DNA from: a virus
Reading direction: 5' to 3' (one strand)
Length of the DNA: 64,000 nucleotides
IMG/VR virus record: IMGVR_UViG_3300025018_000098
Span: 104,875 to 168,874 of that record
The notes beneath the pieces are model-generated. The model was not told the DNA's origin, did no database searches, and was given only the letters and a program-made list of their open reading frames with translations. The position numbers and the translations under genes were made by a program. The first letter of the stretch is position 1, and every line of letters begins with the position of its first letter. Of this stretch, positions 18,219 to 59,255 are shown piece after piece.

Positions 18219-20562
18219 GTGCGTCTCCTTCTACCTCACTGATAGCCAAAAAAGAAGGAATACTCACGCTGGAGCACCCCTTCTAGTTCACCATCCGCTC
18301 AGCTCAGAACGGGATGTCGCCATCGGAACCTCCTTTGTCTGGGTATCTCTCCTCGAGGTACTCGTAAGAAGCCTTCGCCTTCAGGTAGCCATACACTCGG
18401 AATGGGGCTCGCAGGAAGGCGAACGGGACGAAGAGTGTCACCCAGATCCCTCCTACGAGTAAACAGAGAGCGCCCTCAACGATCTTGTTGGCATAGTTCA
18501 CCCAGGACAACGCCTCCTCCAATAGGTCTGTGTCCCCGCTACGGTTGAGGATATCCGTCCAGTGTGGCTTCGCCCACCACCCAACTTTGCGTAGCTCCTC
18601 CACGTACGTCTTGAGCTCATACTCAGTCAGGTGATCTAGGTGCTTGGGCTTGGCCTTCACAGGTTGTGCTCCGCCACTAGACATACAACCTCGATCTCGA
18701 CACCGAAGGGGAGCTTAGCCAGCCGCCGAGCCTCCGATGCGTTGGCGCGCTCATCGTGGAACGTGGCCTGTGACATGGCTGCCACAGGCGTAGTGGGGTG
18801 TTGGTATAATCCCCATCAGGCGGAACAGTCGTGTGTAGGTAGTCACCAACCTCCCACTCAGGGAGATCTACGCGTGTCGAGCTAAACACTCGAAGCACAT
18901 ACATGCAGTCACGGTCATCCACCCAACGTCTCCTCGTTGCTACACACGTCGATCAAGGCCAGGGCCAGCAGGGTGTTGAAGTCCGAGCCTGTGTAGCGCC
19001 TGCTACCCATGTCGTTGTCGATCCTGACGCTGAAGAGGTCATCGTCGTTCCTGAAGAAGATCCCCGGGTACCCGCACTCAACCAGCTGCTTGATGAAGTA
19101 CCCAGTGAAGGACTTGTGCGTAAGGTCGGGAACCACCCGCTTGTTCTGCGTGAGGCATGGCATCCCAGGCTCCCACTCCCAACCAGGGCAGTCGATCAAC
19201 TGTTCCGCCACACTTCGCTGTTCCATGTTCATCCTTGTTTCGCCTTCTCGCGCACTTCTGCACGTAGTTTGTATAGTCGGTAGAGGTCGCCCGGGCGGAT
19301 GGTTGGGGGCACCTTCTCGATGCTGTCCCGAACCTCTCGTGTGAGCCCAAGCCAGGGCCTGTCCATGAAGTCACGAATATAGTCCGCTCGAGTGTCGTCC
19401 CCGTGGAAGTCGAGAGCCTCCATCAGGTACATGAGGGCGAGGAAGATATCCACCTCCGCCTCGTGATGGGACAGCATCGGCTCCTCTTCGATGATCTGTC
19501 CCTTGCTGCTTATGCCGATGACGGGTGCGCCCATTTGTCGAAGTCACTCCACAGCCTTGTGGATCCCCCGCCCAGCCGCCTCAGTGGTGGCTCGAGCGAA
19601 GTCGGAGGGTAGGCGGTGCGCCTCCAGCATGTGCTTCGAGCAGATGTCGAACCATTGGGTCTCGCCCTCCCCAAGCACACCGATGACACAGTGGGATGCG
19701 GATCTGGGTGACCTGTCCGGACCTCCGATGGTCAAGGTCACAACGAGGTACTTCTGTGCAAAGGCCTCTGCAGCGTGTGCCGCGGTCGGCGCCTCAATGG
19801 TCTCTGGGCCGGAACCCTTCCGCCAGACTTCCCAAGTGGGACCCTTGGGGGGCTTGGGCTTGGGTTGCGGGCACAGGACCTCGTACGTGCACTGGAGATA
19901 GCCCTCCATACGCACGATCTCGTCATATTGTTCTTGTAGTGTTCGGTCGACGTTCATCATTCTTCACCTTCTTTCTCGTTGATTGTGACCACAACGCAGT
20001 CCGCGGCCCAGGCGTCTGTCCCATCCTTGAACAACAAGAGCGGTGTGTGCTCCGAGGGATAGTCGATCCCAGTAAGGACCCGGCAATCCACCCGGGACCC
20101 AATCAGCACCCAGACACGCGTACCTATCGGCTCACCCGGCCGAGGCCGCCGCACGTGAACACCGAGGTTGGGCTCGGGCACCCCCGGAATCAGGGCAAGG
20201 GCTTCCTGAAAACAGTTCTTGCAGAACCACCGTGAGCCGTCTCCCGAGTACTCCATCATGATGACAGTAGGTAGGCCCTTGGCGCCGCACTCATCACACG
20301 TGTACCCCAAGTCGGCACTACATAGACGCATCGGGCTGTTCCTCCTGGATGGCCGCCCGCTGATCTCCGTCCCAGGCCAAGGTAAGGCGCTCATTGCATG
20401 CTGCAGCGAAGGTCGCCCAGTCATCCTCCCGGTCTGGAAAGCGGCCGGCGCAGAAGCCCAGGGCCATATCGAAGGTGTCGAGGATGGCGGCACAGTCCAC
20501 CTCAGCTACCCACCTACTGAACTCAAGGAAGAGATCCTCGAGATCCTTACTCATCTTGGTTG

Positions 20563-44751: not shown

Positions 44752-46712
44752 CTTGCACCACCTGTGTCCTGCGTTGTTCCTGCAGCTTGATCTCCTTGCG
44801 GCACTTCACACAGGTCACCCTGTCATCTCGTGTCTCGAGTCGGGTGGTGGTCTTCGCCCCGCACAGGCTATTCCGCCCTGCGTCCAGCTTGTGTATCGGT
44901 TTCTTCTTAGCCATCCGTCATCTCCGTTATGTGCCCTTCTGCATCTACGAGGAAGACAGGTATCTCCCTCTCCTCCAGTAGTTCTTCTAGTACCTCCATG
45001 AGAGGGCTCACCTCCCCGAGAGTGTGCCCGGGGTTCCTAGAGTGGAGCACCAGTACGCACACAACATCGTCGAAGCACTCAGTGTTGGGCTGGTCCATCG
45101 TGAACTGCTCCGGGTGCGTACGGACCTGCAGCTCCGCGGCAGCGTCTCTCACACAGACGTCGAACCCCCATAGACCTCCTACTGAGGCGATAGGTTCGAT
45201 CCACGCATCCATGAACGTCTCTAGGATGTCCCCAACGATCTGAGTGTCGCTCCTCCATGTCCGGTTGATGTGGCCAACGAACGCCACGCGGTGTGCGCCC
45301 TCGGGCAATGAGGTCGCAAACCTGAGTAATGATTCCATGTGTCTCCTCAAGATACTGATAGGTGATCTGGCCATGGAACTGGCGGAGTATTCTCACACTC
45401 AGCGAGAGCATCATCGATTGCCTGCCTCAATCCGATCACCTTCGGGACGTCTGCGAAGGGCAGCAAGTACTCCTCTCCGCAGGCGTAGCACAGCAGCTGC
45501 ACCCCTCCTGTGTAGCCCCGCTTTCGATTGAGGTTCAACGACCAGTCCTCTCCATTCCACACGTGGGACGTCCAGTAGAGACATGGCGCGTTCGCATCGA
45601 TCACGCGGGGAGTATCGCCCACCTCGAGCCCAATAGGAAAAAGAGAATCCCCTGGCCCGCAGGCCAAGGGATTTCTAATCATCGAGACAGCTCGAGCGCG
45701 TCCCACGCCTTGACACTCAGGGTCATCTTGCGCCTCCGCACCACATGCTCCCGTATGTCCTCATCCTTCAAGTACTGCAGCACCAGGGCCTCTGGAACCA
45801 GTGCCCGGAGTCCACGCCTGTCCGCCAACTCGAGAAGCACAAGTCCTTGCTCGCCACACCTCTCACAGAGCCGATCATCATCGACCCTGCATCCGTAAGG
45901 GAGGTCAACATCGGTGGGATCCTCATCGAGCTCCGCCCACTTGTTGCCGATGAGCTCGTCTCTCTCCGCCGCTGTAGTGCGCCCATACGCTCGAATGCCC
46001 GTGTCCTCTTGGCACCCGGGGCACCGCCGGTAGACCCAGTGAACCCGGGCCATCACATCGCCCCACTGTGCTGGAAGTACTCATCGACAACCGCCAAGCA
46101 GTTGCGTAGTTGGGTTTCGTGCGTCTCCGTGTCCTCTTGCAGGAAGTTCCTCGCGAAGTAGGCCACATGCCGCAGCAGTGCCTTGGGGTTATTGACGTCT
46201 TCGATGCTGAGCTCCTTCCCGGCCTTGACCCGACGGGCCTCACCGAGCCACGCCGTCAGGTAGTCATACTCTGACTGCTTGTAGATCTTGGAGGACAAAG
46301 CCTTCTTTCTCCAAGTGGCGTAGTCCTTGGACTGTCTTCGGTCCCGGTCCCCTAGCTGCAGGTCGATGCTCCGTAGGGAGTAGCGAAGTAGCCGCAACCT
46401 GTCCTTGCAGTCACGGATATCTACGGGGGTCTCAAACGTTGGTGCGTTGTGTGCCATGGGGCTCTCCTTCAGAGATTTGGTACACGTAACAGAGCTTGCG
46501 CTCCGCCCGTGCTTTGTTGATGGTCTCTCGTATGCAGGGGGTGAGGCCAGAATGGGCCACAACCACTACATCGGCTTTCGCCATTGTTGTGTATTTGGTG
46601 ACGCAGTAGGCCGAAGCCTTCACTGCATCCTTTCGATGTTCTTCTAGTCCCAAGTAATAGGCGTTCATCTATCTCCTCATCTTGCTTATAGGAAAAAAGA
46701 GGGTCATTCCCG

Positions 46713-46762
46713 ACCCTCTTTCCTCACCCTCTTTCCTCACCCTTGCTCCTCACCCTTGCTCC
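46713..46762. repeat. 13-bp tandem repeat, about 4 copies
   Basis: ACCCTCTTTCCTC x2, then ACCCTTGCTCCTC and ACCCTTGCTCC. Confidence 0.8.
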
Positions 46763-47940
46763 AGCCGATGATACAGGGTCGTCATCCGCTCCTGTGGGTC
46801 ATTGTTTGTCAGGGCCTGATGGATGCCTTCCTCATTGCCCATGAGCACAACACCACGCTTAGCTCGGGTCACTGCGGTGTACAGGATCTGCCGACTCAAC
46901 ATGTACTTGTGTGCGTCGTGACAGATCACAACAACCCAGTCCCACTCGGACCCCTGTGACTTGTGGATCGTAAGGGCGTAGGCGAGACGGAGCTTCATGG
47001 CCTGTACTGCATCCAGGGACAGGACGGTGCCCTCAAAGTCGACAGTCACTGTGTCAGGTGCGACTGCCTTGACCACGCCCTCCTGCCCGTTGAACACCCC
47101 TAACTTATAGTCGTTGGCTGTGTAGATGATTCGGTCTCCTGCGGTCAGGTCGTAGTAGGTGTCATCCCTGTAGATCCTGAAGGTGTCTGCACCATCCTCT
47201 TGTGGGTTGATGCGTGCCTTGAGCCCCACGTTCAGGAGATCCACCCCGAGGCCATACTTGTTGTAGGGACCCAGCACCTGAACGGTGTCGTGCTCCTTGA
47301 GCATGATGCCTACCCTGCGAACAACCTGCTCTCGAGCCGCGTCCACGTTCTCGTGAAGCCTCACGTACATGAAGTCTGCGCGCTTCTTGAGGTCCAGCTC
47401 TGTCCCCTCGATGATGCGATAGGCGTTGTCGCAAACCCAGGAGCCTCGAGCAGACCTATGCACTGTCTTGAGGTGGACTGCCGGAATGCGCTCGCACTGA
47501 AGGATGTCCGCCAACACCCTGCCCGCGCCTACGGAGGGAAGCTGGTCTGCGTCTCCCACAAGAACCACTCGAGTGGTGCTCGGTATGGAGTTGAACAACC
47601 AAGCAGCCAACGTGGCGCTCAGCATGGAGGCCTCGTCAACGATGACCAGGTCCGGTGGGATCCAATCATCCCCGGCCTGCGTCTTGGTTATGAGCCACCG
47701 ATGGATCGTGAAAGCCTCTTCCCCAGTCGCCTCGGTGATGCGCCGGGCAGCCTTTCCTGTGGGCGCCAGCAGTACGTAGCGTGTCGCCACTGTCCTGCCT
47801 CCAAGGATACGGTTCAGTGCGATCCGCAGCGTGGTCGTCTTACCAACCCCAGGACCCCCGGTAACTACCCCGAAGGGGGCGTGCAGGATGAGCTGTGCTG
47901 CCTCCTCCTGATCATCATCAAGCGTGAACTCCGTCGTCAT
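46750..47940 (-). CDS. recD2: RecD2-like SF1B helicase, ATPase part
   Basis: GGPGVGKT, LAPTGKAA, IVDEASM, VGDADQLPSVG, AYALTIHKSQGSE, LYTAVTRAK. Confidence 0.95.
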   Translation of the reverse strand: MTTEFTLDDDQEEAAQLILHAPFGVVTGGPGVGKTTTLRIALNRILGGRTVATRYVLLAPTGKAARRITEATGEEAFTIHRWLITKTQAGDDWIPPDLVIVDEASMLSATLAAWLFNSIPSTTRVVLVGDADQLPSVGAGRVLADILQCERIPAVHLKTVHRSARGSWVCDNAYRIIEGTELDLKKRADFMYVRLHENVDAAREQVVRRVGIMLKEHDTVQVLGPYNKYGLGVDLLNVGLKARINPQEDGADTFRIYRDDTYYDLTAGDRIIYTANDYKLGVFNGQEGVVKAVAPDTVTVDFEGTVLSLDAVQAMKLRLAYALTIHKSQGSEWDWVVVICHDAHKYMLSRQILYTAVTRAKRGVVLMGNEEGIHQALTNNDPQERMTTLYHRLEQG

Positions 47941-48889
47941 CTTTGTCCTCCAGTCTCTGCAAGATGCACTTAGCTATCGTCTCTTCTGCGTTCGCGTACT
48001 TCCGGTGCATCAGCACAACGTGATCCTCATCGATGTCGAAGGTCACCATGGCCCCCTTGTCGACTAGGGCCACACAGGCATCCTCGAAGACACTCGACGA
48101 CAGGTGCATCTTGGTTGCGTAAGCGCTCTCCAGATCGTCGTAGTAGCTCGCTGTGTGCCCACCGAAGCTCAGCTGTTCCAGCGAGTAGAGCACCGCGGCT
48201 GACGTGCGCCGGGGATCATCCTCGGGAACGCCTGCCTGTTGTGCGAGGAAGTCGATACGTCCAAACGAGATGAGGCCATGGTCCGTGTACAGGGCGTACG
48301 GGTTCTCCTCGAACAAGCGGATGACATCCTCGAGTGTGACGTCATCCCCAAGCAGCTTCTGCCGCAAGGTTCCTATCACGTGGTCCGCCTCTCGCTGGCT
48401 GAAGCCGTACGAGAAAAAGCGAATCAGGGCTTCCCGCTCCCCGAGGTACTGGGCATACGCGTGCACGATGGCAGACATGCGGTCGTCACCAATGCCTTCA
48501 ACCTCCTTCAGTCGCTGCGGCTCTTCATCGATAACGTCCCACAGGGACTTGCCGAACGTGTCCCACACCCGCCTGGAGAGCACGTCCCCTAACAGCGGGA
48601 TGTACGTGGTCATCCAGAGGATGACGCCCACATCCGTCTTGGGCTCCTCCGCCACGTACCGGATGACCTTCACCTGCTTGCCATAGGTGGGGTGCTCCAC
48701 CCACTCCCCCTCGAGCTGCACTCGCTGCCCCTGTGTCAGCTGGTGGACGTTCCCTACGAAGGACACCTCGGTACGGGCCTTGGTCTTGCCGCTCGAGTCC
48801 GTCTCCCCGTCTGCCATCAACCGTCCGAAGCCCCAGCCTCCTGGGTAGACTCGAACGCTACTTACCTCCCCTACGATTAGCGTGGCCAT
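47918..48889 (-). CDS. recD2: RecD2-like helicase, N-terminal OB/HhH part
   Basis: GEWVEHPTYGKQ, LKEVEGIG, ENPY.L....ISFGRID, DPRR, GHT. Confidence 0.9.
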   Translation of the reverse strand: MATLIVGEVSSVRVYPGGWGFGRLMADGETDSSGKTKARTEVSFVGNVHQLTQGQRVQLEGEWVEHPTYGKQVKVIRYVAEEPKTDVGVILWMTTYIPLLGDVLSRRVWDTFGKSLWDVIDEEPQRLKEVEGIGDDRMSAIVHAYAQYLGEREALIRFFSYGFSQREADHVIGTLRQKLLGDDVTLEDVIRLFEENPYALYTDHGLISFGRIDFLAQQAGVPEDDPRRTSAAVLYSLEQLSFGGHTASYYDDLESAYATKMHLSSSVFEDACVALVDKGAMVTFDIDEDHVVLMHRKYANAEETIAKCILQRLEDKDDDGVHA

Positions 48890-48950: not shown

Positions 48951-49050
48951 AAAAAAGAGGAGCATGCACTCCTGGCCCCCGTCCACACAGAAGTGCGGAG
49001 ATGAGGAAGGGGGACCGATTCAGGGCCCAGGGTGCATGCTTCTGCTCTCA
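48951..49050 (-). ncRNA. Candidate small RNA with anti-SD-like loop
   Basis: Promoter motif 49054-49063; long stem AGCAUGCAC-CCUGG/CCAGG-A-GUGCAUGCU; loop CCCCCUUCCUCAU; hairpin UCCGCAC/GUGUGGA; U6 end. Confidence 0.6.
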
Positions 49051-49080
49051 CATTGCTTATGGGCGTCCCTGCCCCTGTTT

Positions 49081-50997
49081 TCACACCTGCTTGATGTGGG
49101 GCAGCGGGATCAACAGATCGTCCTCAGGGCCACCCAGCTTGCGCATCAAGGTCTCCGCCTGCTTGGATGTCCCACGAGCCTCCAAGAACTCGAGGAGGGA
49201 CTCAGCCAAACCTGTGTGAGACTCGAAGAAAGACGCCAAGCTGGCGCGCTCCAGGGAGCTCAAGCGAGACCCGTAGAGGGTGTGCTCCTCGAAGACCTGC
49301 CAACACTCGGGCCACAGCGCCCGGATGTAGATGGCGATGACCTGGGCATAGGCCCGAGTCTCTTCTTGCACGTCCGCCCGTAGACGCAGGTCCAGGAAGT
49401 TGAGCCAGTTGAGGAGGTTCGCCTTGAGACGAATCTTGGTGTACTGGTTCTGCGGAAGGACCAGCCGAGCGATCTCGGACGCAGTCCCGTAGGCCATGAT
49501 GGCGTCGTAGGCCGAGCGGGCGCTGACCGAGCTCGTCCCAACCAGGTGCTTCACAGCCTGCTGCAGCGGTGGTGAGAGGGGGATCTTGGATCCCTGCTTG
49601 TTGTCCGGGTCCGTCCCCTTCACTCGAGCGAGCTCAGGGATGTAGTAGAGGTCCGGCATCTCACTGTACCGTCCGGAGAACTCGTTCCGGCTTGTGAACT
49701 TCCGGAACTGGTCGTAGTCCTCGATGGTCACGTTCGAAAGGCTCACCGTCCGGTGCCTATCGAACTGCCGTAGGACGAACATCGGAAGCTGCAGCTCCAC
49801 GCAGAGCTCGTTCATTTCGAACGGGGAGTTCCCGCTGAGCACGATCTTGCCCGAGCGCCGAACAACAAGAATACCTGTTCTCGTGTGTGCACAGTAGACC
49901 CTCCCTTTGTAACCCTCCCAGCTGACATTCTGCTTCCCTTGGTTGATGACTGGGTGCGTCATGCGGCTCAGCATACTCACGGAGAACATACCTTCCACGT
50001 TCTCCAGAACATGTGCAGCGCGTCCTGCATGCAGCGCGATGAGCTGTACTGCATGGGCCACTTCCGCAACCGATGTGGAGTATAGCCAAGTACCTCTGTG
50101 CTCACTCCCATCCGATGCTCGAAGTCCTTCAAGCAGTGCTTCAGACGCTTCTTGGCCCATGTACTGCATATCCACGGGAATACGCTTGTTCCCAGCTGGT
50201 GTGTAGAACATCTCCCGAAAGTCCAGTGTGATTCCGTCCTCACGTACCACATAGTTATTGTTTGCAAGGATGCCAATCTCAAGATTGAGCTCAGCGCACA
50301 GCTCGAAGAGGTAGGCCACCTTGCGCTTCTTCTTCAGATGAAACGTGATGCCATTACGGTAGCTGCCACCAGCGTACCCATCCCCAATGAAGAACCCGTA
50401 CAGGCGTAGACGAGCAAGATCATACTTCAAGTTCGGCATTCGGTACGGGGCTAGTTTCGAGTAGCGCACCATGGAGCGCTCTCCGAGCACATCTGCTGCA
50501 CATAGCCCATAGTCTGACCAAGACTGCGTCTGGGTGACGTGGTCATACGCCTTTAGACTCACCCACATATTGTGTGACGGGGTTACTAGCAGATCGACAC
50601 CTCCATGATCTACAGAGTACATCTGCCCTTCATACTCTTCATCGACTAAGCCTTGTGGGTGCTCATAGCAGAGCGACTGCGCCTTTGGGTCCCATACCCC
50701 AAGCTCCATCTCCTTGGTCACGTCAGGCCAGGGCACAAACCCTCGTCTCTTCACCAAGACTTCCGTCTTTGCGTCATAGCATGTATGTCTGTCACCCCAC
50801 AATCTGTTGCGCAGTCGGGCGTCCTTGGTCTTGTCCACCCCAGTCAGGGTGTCCGTGGACATCCGGGCTGCCCGAAGGGGCTCGAGGTCGTCGCCCATCT
50901 TGTCCACGTACTTCACGTACCCGTGGTCGAGGATTTTGATGTGCGTCAGAGGCTTGGCTGGGTCTCCCTTGATTCGGTTCTCGTCGTAACTGCTCAT
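49081..50997 (-). CDS. thyX: Flavin-dependent thymidylate synthase with intein
   Basis: LDHGYV..VD.MG, AARMS, RHT|SPFE, RQFDRHR...NEFSGRY, EIARLVLP, FLDLR...QEETR.YA. Confidence 0.95.
   Translation of the reverse strand: MSSYDENRIKGDPAKPLTHIKILDHGYVKYVDKMGDDLEPLRAARMSTDTLTGVDKTKDARLRNRLWGDRHTCYDAKTEVLVKRRGFVPWPDVTKEMELGVWDPKAQSLCYEHPQGLVDEEYEGQMYSVDHGGVDLLVTPSHNMWVSLKAYDHVTQTQSWSDYGLCAADVLGERSMVRYSKLAPYRMPNLKYDLARLRLYGFFIGDGYAGGSYRNGITFHLKKKRKVAYLFELCAELNLEIGILANNNYVVREDGITLDFREMFYTPAGNKRIPVDMQYMGQEASEALLEGLRASDGSEHRGTWLYSTSVAEVAHAVQLIALHAGRAAHVLENVEGMFSVSMLSRMTHPVINQGKQNVSWEGYKGRVYCAHTRTGILVVRRSGKIVLSGNSPFEMNELCVELQLPMFVLRQFDRHRTVSLSNVTIEDYDQFRKFTSRNEFSGRYSEMPDLYYIPELARVKGTDPDNKQGSKIPLSPPLQQAVKHLVGTSSVSARSAYDAIMAYGTASEIARLVLPQNQYTKIRLKANLLNWLNFLDLRLRADVQEETRAYAQVIAIYIRALWPECWQVFEEHTLYGSRLSSLERASLASFFESHTGLAESLLEFLEARGTSKQAETLMRKLGGPEDDLLIPLPHIKQV
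49828..50781 (-). mobile_element. Intein (318 aa) with LAGLIDADG-type homing endonuclease
   Basis: Starts CYDAKTEVL, block B VTPSHNM, LYGFFIGDG and LEGLRASDG, ends VYC...SGN|S; less GC-rich than flanks. Confidence 0.92.
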
Positions 50998-59052: not shown

Positions 59053-59145
59053 TTTGCTAAATAGACCCCCATCTGGCCTATGAGCAAGGTGAAGGAAAAC
59101 GGTTCGACTCCGGTGCTTGTAGGGGGTGGCCCCCCAACTTCTTTG
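59053..59145 (+). promoter_or_regulatory. Orphan promoter copy, possible short RNA
   Basis: About 40 bp identical to the 30.5-kb promoter; no credible + strand gene follows. Confidence 0.55.
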
Positions 59146-59154
59146 CTATCCCAG

Positions 59155-59196
59155 AAAAACGAAAGGCCACCTCCATGGGATGTATGGAGGTGGCCT
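59155..59196 (-). terminator. Intrinsic terminator of the tail operon
   Basis: 13-bp perfect stem AGGCCACCTCCAT/ATGGAGGTGGCCT followed by TTCGTTTTT. Confidence 0.8.
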
Positions 59197-59255
59197 ACCG
59201 TCCCCGAGGCCCAAGAAAACCTCGAGTACGAGCCTCAGAAGGCGTGGGAATATCC

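What the first reader, a model, noticed from the sequence alone, without database searches (positions are those of the whole stretch)
48951..49063. Candidate phage small RNA with its own promoter that exposes an anti-Shine-Dalgarno loop
Seen: a copy of the promoter motif (CCCATAAGCA) is followed by no meaningful ORF. Instead about 100 nt fold into a long closing stem (AGCAUGCAC-CCUGG / CCAGG-A-GUGCAUGCU) ending in U6. The stem encloses a single-stranded CCCCCUUCCUCAU and a hairpin whose G-U pair favours the minus strand. Its UUCCUCAUCU pairs over 10 nt with the leader AGAUGAGGAG (46673-46682), and CCUUC complements the GAAGG in most promoter leaders. Inference: a trans-acting translational regulator of phage early/middle genes or host mRNAs. 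Alternatively it is an attenuator upstream of recD2.
Basis: partly seen in the sequence, partly recalled or inferred. Interest (0 to 1): 0.75.

Follow-up and report, generated by a model that had tools for sequence, protein, structure and literature searches.

The report
Phage small RNA with C-rich loop
A large uncultured phage probably makes a folded RNA of about 100 bases from a promoter that drives the ribosome-rescue RNA (tmRNA) in most relatives, and its exposed C-rich loop may block ribosome-binding sites, but neither the RNA nor its targets have been shown.

Summary
The element is real. It lies on the minus strand between thyX and a split recD2 in a 169-kb phage that encodes its own RNA polymerase. 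It folds into a rod (z -6.5) with an open 21-nt C/U bulge and a U6 tail. The promoter is a variant (consensus CCTATRAGCA), but it carries the clade's upstream A-tract and sits 18 nt after the thymidylate synthase stop, as in four relatives. In five relatives (six records) this promoter leads to a tmRNA. The three complete genomes without tmRNA (this one, G015, G017) instead have a long stem from the start site enclosing a C/U loop. A sister family with covarying stems and an invariant CUCCUUCGUG tract lies behind the dNMP kinase gene in other relatives. No sequence homologue of this RNA was found, so its own covariation is untested. The proposed targets are not supported: pairing to the phage's leaders is at or near shuffle level, and the loop lacks CCUCC. 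Best reading: a trans-acting C-rich small RNA with unknown targets, whose 3' end is also a leaky terminator for recD2. The scan has noted this kind of RNA in other phages.

The parts
49081..50997 (-). Upstream gene thyX (638 aa, with a long insertion that looks like an intein); its stop codon overlaps the promoter's A-tract
   Evidence: PHROGs and Pfam Thy1 hits; the intein reading is from the sequence only
49078..49081 (-). Upstream A-tract of the phage promoter, at -19 to -16 of the core
   Evidence: A at -19/-18 in 57-59 of 99 clade sites; this 15-nt spacer is the commonest
49048..49063 (-). Variant phage promoter core (49063-49054) and GTGA start-region motif; start site inferred near 49050
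   Evidence: PWM 19.8 bits; +18 nt from the thy stop in G000, G001, G002, G004, G011
48951..49050 (-). Predicted ~100-nt non-coding RNA, a rod closed from its 5' end to the U tract
   Evidence: Folding z -6.5; ensemble analysis; no transcript data
49027..49040 (-). 5' strand of the 14-bp closing stem
49021..49025 (-). 5' strand of the inner 5-bp helix (partner 48977-48981)
49000..49020 (-). 21-nt one-sided bulge holding the C/U-rich tract (UCCCCC, then UUCCUCAUC); candidate seed
   Evidence: Opening energy about 2 kcal/mol
48982..48999 (-). Inner 7-bp hairpin with UUCU loop and one G-U pair
48961..48975 (-). 3' strand of the closing stem; overlaps a weak 6-bp local terminator-like hairpin (48973-48958)
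48951..48960 (-). C/U tail ending in U6, like the phage's other terminator tails
47918..48889 (-). Downstream recD2 N-terminal gene (SD at 48898-48895); no promoter-like site between it and the element, so it needs read-through

Best explanation
A stand-alone small RNA of about 100 nt, made by the phage's own RNA polymerase from the conserved promoter behind thymidylate synthase and ended at the U6 tail. The rod protects both ends and holds a 21-nt C/U-rich bulge open. The bulge most likely pairs with purine-rich ribosome-binding sites (GAGG/GGAAGG/GGGG-type) and lowers translation of a set of mRNAs, more likely host than phage ones. Termination must be leaky, because recD2 has no promoter of its own. 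Shown: the sequence features, fold statistics, promoter conservation and the counterparts in relatives. Inferred: the transcript, its ends, base-pairing action and the targets. Odds: discrete RNA about 0.75; acting by RBS pairing about 0.45 overall.
For: Promoter: PWM rank, A-tract and identical +18 spacing. The same promoter leads to non-coding RNA in every close complete relative: tmRNA in G001, G002, G004, G007, G011 and 17-18-bp stems enclosing CCUCC loops in G015 and G017 (z -7.0, -7.5). Of 209 promoter-like sites in 8 genomes only 5 combine a strong fold with an open C/U 8-mer: this one, G015's, two sister-family members and one unexamined site. The sister family (8 distinct sequences) keeps an invariant CUCCUUCGUG tract while 10 of 30 pairs covary (0/500 shuffles). 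G015's loop shares 12 nt with it. In G015 and G007 the loop matches one own-gene RBS over 13 and 12 nt (3 and 15 of 1000 shuffles). Unpaired UCCC motifs block initiation in RsaE (PMC2790875).
Against: No sequence homologue: model R1 found nothing convincing in 29 clade records or 80 recD2 loci, and the sister model R2 gives 7.3 bits against 105-128 for members. The counterparts are positional and architectural only; their loops share at most 5 nt with this one. Target tests in this genome are at or near chance. The loop lacks CCUCC and pairs with an ideal SD more weakly (-7.6) than the four counterparts (-10.3 to -11.0). C/U tracts are common in this phage's terminator arms.
Confidence: 0.45

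Rival explanations
1. Cis element only: a structured 5' leader, leaky terminator or RNase III site that sets the level of recD2 below that of the dcd-thyX genes; the C/U bulge is incidental.
For: Stem plus U tail resembles the phage's terminators. recD2 has no own promoter. Long hairpins, some with U tracts, also sit just upstream of recD2-N in more distant phages: L507 (about 18 bp enclosing a large loop), L508, L073/L075/L078, L074, L095 (no formal background was computed).
Against: A terminator right behind a conserved promoter makes a short RNA by itself. No alternative anti-terminator fold is within reach: forcing the small hairpin costs 18 kcal/mol. The counterparts in G015 and G017 precede unrelated genes, so the element follows the promoter, not recD2.
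Confidence: 0.25
2. Decoy or sponge for a protein (a pyrimidine-tract or double-strand RNA binding protein, or the RNA polymerase in a 6S-like way) or for another small RNA, rather than an mRNA-pairing RNA.
For: End-to-end rod with one open bulge; no significant mRNA target in the genome.
Against: The bulge is one-sided, unlike the two-sided bubble of 6S RNA (own knowledge). No Ro60/TROVE gene. Counterparts in relatives keep SD-complementary loops.
Confidence: 0.15
3. Shrunken relic of the tmRNA gene, possibly a tRNA-like-domain decoy of the kind known from mycobacteriophage DS6A.
For: It sits where relatives have tmRNA, and this genome has none. The inner helix starts with a 13/17 match to the 5' end of the G001/G011 tmRNA and ends like an acceptor stem with a discriminator A. 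TLD-only precedent: PMC4131195.
Against: No ARAGORN call, no RF00023 match at E<=1, and a clade mini-TLD HMM does not report it even at E 200. G3 faces G, not U; there is no T-loop and no CCA. The 5' match is reached by 168 of 33,768 genome windows and the 3' end shows no similarity. G015 and G017 counterparts are not tRNA-like.
Confidence: 0.12
4. A small protein gene (46 codons, 49084-48944, overlapping the thyX stop).
For: Its GTG overlaps the thyX stop in the usual 4-nt way.
Against: Not called as a gene; no Pfam hit; no relative in 17 clade records; it starts upstream of the promoter and is buried in a very stable stem.
Confidence: 0.03

Closest known systems
C-rich (UCCC) small RNAs of Bacillota: RsaE, RNAIII, LhrC (PMC2790875; LhrC paper PMC4132741 seen in search only)
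   Same: Short structured RNA with an unpaired UCCC-containing tract that could pair with ribosome-binding sites.
   Different: Phage-encoded, made from a phage promoter; the tract lies in a one-sided bulge of an end-to-end rod; no sequence similarity; no target shown.
Cuckoo RNAs (RSs0680/CcsR, ar14) of Alphaproteobacteria (PMC4615179)
   Same: Variable stems that display an anti-SD-like loop.
   Different: Cuckoo RNAs have 2-4 adjacent hairpins, each with CCUCCUCCC; this RNA has one tract and lacks that motif.
Unnamed clade RNAs found here: stem-loops behind thymidylate synthase (G015, G017) and the family behind dNMP kinase (G007, G011, G012, L509-L513, L515)
   Same: Same phage promoter directly behind a nucleotide-metabolism gene, pairing from the start site, exposed C/U tract, 60-115 nt.
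   Different: They carry CCUCC or CUCCUU; this RNA has an extra inner hairpin and scores only 7.3 bits with the family model.
tmRNA and the TLD-only RNA of mycobacteriophage DS6A (PMC4131195)
   Same: Genomic slot and a weak likeness to the 5' end and acceptor stem.
   Different: No G3-U70, T-loop or CCA; not found by ARAGORN, Rfam or a clade HMM.
Rfam SrbA (RF02872)
   Same: Best Rfam match, 22.8 bits, E 0.0009 on a 601-nt search.
   Different: Gathering score is 69 and most of the model is skipped; treated as a chance hairpin match.

Membership tests
C-rich (UCCC) RBS-pairing small RNAs | Unpaired UCCC motif | tested here: met
   UCCCCC in the bulge, predicted opening cost about 2 kcal/mol; prediction only
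C-rich (UCCC) RBS-pairing small RNAs | Own promoter and terminator signals | tested here: met
C-rich (UCCC) RBS-pairing small RNAs | Discrete transcript | not testable with these tools
C-rich (UCCC) RBS-pairing small RNAs | Motif conserved while stems covary | tested here: inconclusive
   No homologue found; true only of the sister family
C-rich (UCCC) RBS-pairing small RNAs | Pairs with target ribosome-binding sites beyond chance | tested here: inconclusive
   Phage leaders at or near shuffle level; host unknown
Cuckoo RNAs | 2-4 adjacent hairpins each with CCUCCUCCC | tested here: not met
   One tract, motif absent; no Rfam hit
Clade family behind dNMP kinase (model R2) | Covariance-model score in the members' range | tested here: not met
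   7.3 bits against 105-128
Clade family behind dNMP kinase (model R2) | Invariant CUCCUUCGUG tract followed by a long 3' hairpin | tested here: not met
   7 of 11 positions match and the tract is enclosed by the stem
tmRNA / TLD-only RNA | G3-U70 acceptor stem, T-loop, CCA | tested here: not met
   G faces G; UUCU tetraloop; no CCA
tmRNA / TLD-only RNA | Detection by ARAGORN, RF00023 or clade TLD profile | tested here: not met
Y RNA | Ro60 (TROVE) partner gene and Rfam match | tested here: not met
Intrinsic terminator | GC-rich stem directly followed by a U tract | tested here: met
   efficiency with the phage polymerase not testable

The most novel reading that the evidence does not exclude
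These phages have a conserved RNA-gene slot behind thymidylate synthase that holds either tmRNA or an exchangeable C/U-loop small RNA, so lineages that lost ribosome rescue replaced it with an RNA that steers or blocks ribosome loading; the G000 RNA may be a tmRNA remnant rebuilt into such a regulator.
Probability: 0.2. Interest if true: 0.78.

Novelty: new variant of a known kind. Interest (0 to 1): 0.52.

Why it matters
Few small RNAs of virulent-type phages have a known mechanism; most examples read in the review PMC12197685 come from temperate phages or are antisense RNAs. A clade with its own RNA polymerase that repeatedly places an SD-complementary RNA behind nucleotide-metabolism genes, apparently in exchange for tmRNA at one site, gives a testable case of phage control of translation initiation. 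The sister family, with covariation and a candidate conserved target, is the better experimental entry point; the flagged RNA is its most divergent and least supported counterpart.

Tried and rejected
Rfam at gathering level: nothing in the window. Single-sequence model R1: no convincing hit (best 21 bits, a plain hairpin). blastn against cultured phages: nothing; nearest cultured RNA polymerase only 33% identical, so no host could be inferred. HDV-like ribozyme: too few bases between the candidate helices (inspection). Cis pairing of the loop with the recD2 RBS: not formed in the ensemble. Conserved target shared with relatives: the top target gene of G007/G011 has no homologue in this genome, and no orthologue group ranks high throughout. 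I ran five different target statistics for this RNA; only the contiguous-run test was borderline (15/300), so I do not count it as support.

Full report
Setting. The window is the last 64 kb of a 168,874-bp phage record that encodes a fused beta-beta' RNA polymerase. About 110 relatives have polymerases 50-66% identical; RecD2 relatives reach only about 48%, and the nearest cultured phage polymerase is 33% identical. There is no close relative and the host is unknown. The element lies on the minus strand between thyX (stop 49081) and the N-terminal gene of a split recD2 (start 48889).

Observation. The described stems, bulge, hairpin and U6 are all present. The minus strand folds at -55.9 kcal/mol, z -6.5, 6th among distinct loci in a genome-wide window scan. 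The rod can close from the first bases after the promoter to the U tract, and the C/U tract costs about 2 kcal/mol to open. The competing 6-bp local hairpin costs 18 kcal/mol against the rod, so no two-state switch is predicted.

Promoter. The phage motif is CCTATRAGCA in about 20 gene-heading copies; this copy has C at the third position. It is still the best non-training site of a matrix, with 0.03 equal sites per shuffled genome. Two further facts were not used in that matrix. First, clade promoters have an A-tract at -19 to -16, and this one has it at the commonest spacing (lead from note e1-5678611). Second, a canonical copy sits exactly 18 nt after the thymidylate synthase stop in G001, G002, G004 and G011, as here, and at +16 and +34 in G017 and G015. 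The promoter is therefore very likely real and old.

What the promoter drives in relatives. In G001, G002, G004, G007 (nearly identical to G012) and G011 it leads, directly or after a short frame, to a full tmRNA; in G007 the promoter is 289 nt from the stop. Eleven of 30 records have tmRNA above the Rfam cut-off; the only records at least 90% complete that lack it are this genome, G015 and G017. G015 and G017 carry, from the start site, a 17-18-bp stem around a 23-25-nt loop with CCUCC (z -7.0 and -7.5). In a scan of 17 records these were the only promoter-linked stems of 14 bp or more with such loops. This is three genomes without a tree, so the exclusivity is suggestive only.

Sister family. 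Behind the dNMP kinase gene, G007/G012, G011 and six further contigs have the same promoter, an invariant CUCCUUCGUG tract and a long hairpin. On seven rows 10 of 30 pairs change on both sides, 0 of 500 shuffles reach that and slid controls give 0-1; the rows are related and the structure came from them, so this is strong but not a probability. It has no Rfam match. The G015 loop shares 12 nt with the tract. The best RBS matches in G007 (12 nt) and G011 (10 nt) fall on orthologous promoter-headed genes. The flagged RNA is not a member by model score (7.3 bits).

Targets. Two of five genomes tested (G015, G007) pass the longest-match test, but those shuffles do not preserve an SD core and so are lenient. 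The flagged loop lacks CCUCC and binds an ideal SD more weakly than its counterparts.

Rivals. recD2 has no promoter of its own, so the U tract must leak, and long hairpins precede recD2-N in several distant phages. A purely cis role stays possible, but the element tracks the promoter rather than recD2. A tmRNA origin is tempting from position and a 13/17 match to the tmRNA 5' end, and TLD-only phage RNAs are known (PMC4131195), but ARAGORN, RF00023 and a clade profile all miss it and the identity features are absent.

Verdict. A real promoter-driven structured element, probably a discrete small RNA (about 0.75), most likely acting through its C/U bulge on ribosome-binding sites (about 0.45). 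It works like RsaE or cuckoo RNAs (PMC2790875, PMC4615179) but is a member of neither. Earlier notes of this scan describe similar RNAs in other phages; these are unchecked and not counted as evidence. Interest 0.52.

Noticed in passing
L177:10449-10562 (+); L204:2941-3065 (-); L509:2268-2380; L510:1483-1597; L511:2288-2413; L512:2288-2411; L513:2122-2246; L515:2045-2169: Undescribed conserved non-coding RNA family behind the dNMP kinase gene: phage promoter, invariant CUCCUUCGUG tract, long covarying hairpin; no Rfam match; candidate conserved target gene (G007:51083, G011:42059).
   Followed up: yes
L216:17363-17435 (+), G015; L228:3920-3992 (-), G017: Promoter-linked 17-18-bp stems with CCUCC loops directly behind thymidylate synthase; the G015 loop matches the RBS of the gene ending at G015:58377 (-) over 13 nt.
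   Followed up: yes
L529-L539: Full tmRNA genes in 11 of 30 clade records, six of them in the transcription unit behind thymidylate synthase; no smpB in five genomes tested. The thymidylate synthase at this site is ThyA in G015 and different ThyX types elsewhere.
   Followed up: partly
window 59077-59200 (+): A canonical promoter copy whose next 47 nt form an inverted copy of the motif, followed by a 14-bp hairpin and no clear RBS: a second non-coding candidate (z only -2.7).
   Followed up: no
L507:1095-1200; L508 before 6121; L073, L074, L075, L078, L095 upstream of recD2-N: Long, nearly perfect hairpins, often with U tracts, just upstream of split recD2 genes in more distant phages.
   Followed up: partly
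window 46750-48889 (-): recD2 is split into N-terminal and helicase genes; many phage relatives show the same split.
   Followed up: partly
window 49081-50997 (-): thyX carries an insertion of about 320 aa with intein-like ends; Pfam reported only Thy1.
   Followed up: no
G011:148237 (+), in L210: Promoter followed by a stem of about 21 bp enclosing a C/U-rich loop; a possible second RNA of this kind, downstream of the tmRNA.
   Followed up: no
L189:8795-8870 (-), G002; L200:3485-3560 (+), G004: Promoter leaders that share a short A/C-rich word with the G017 loop (13 nt in G004) but fold poorly (z -1.0, +1.2).
   Followed up: partly
L046 near 18675-18774 (-) (G000:78774): Strongest-folding window of the genome: two hairpins, one of 16 bp, outside the window.
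   Followed up: no
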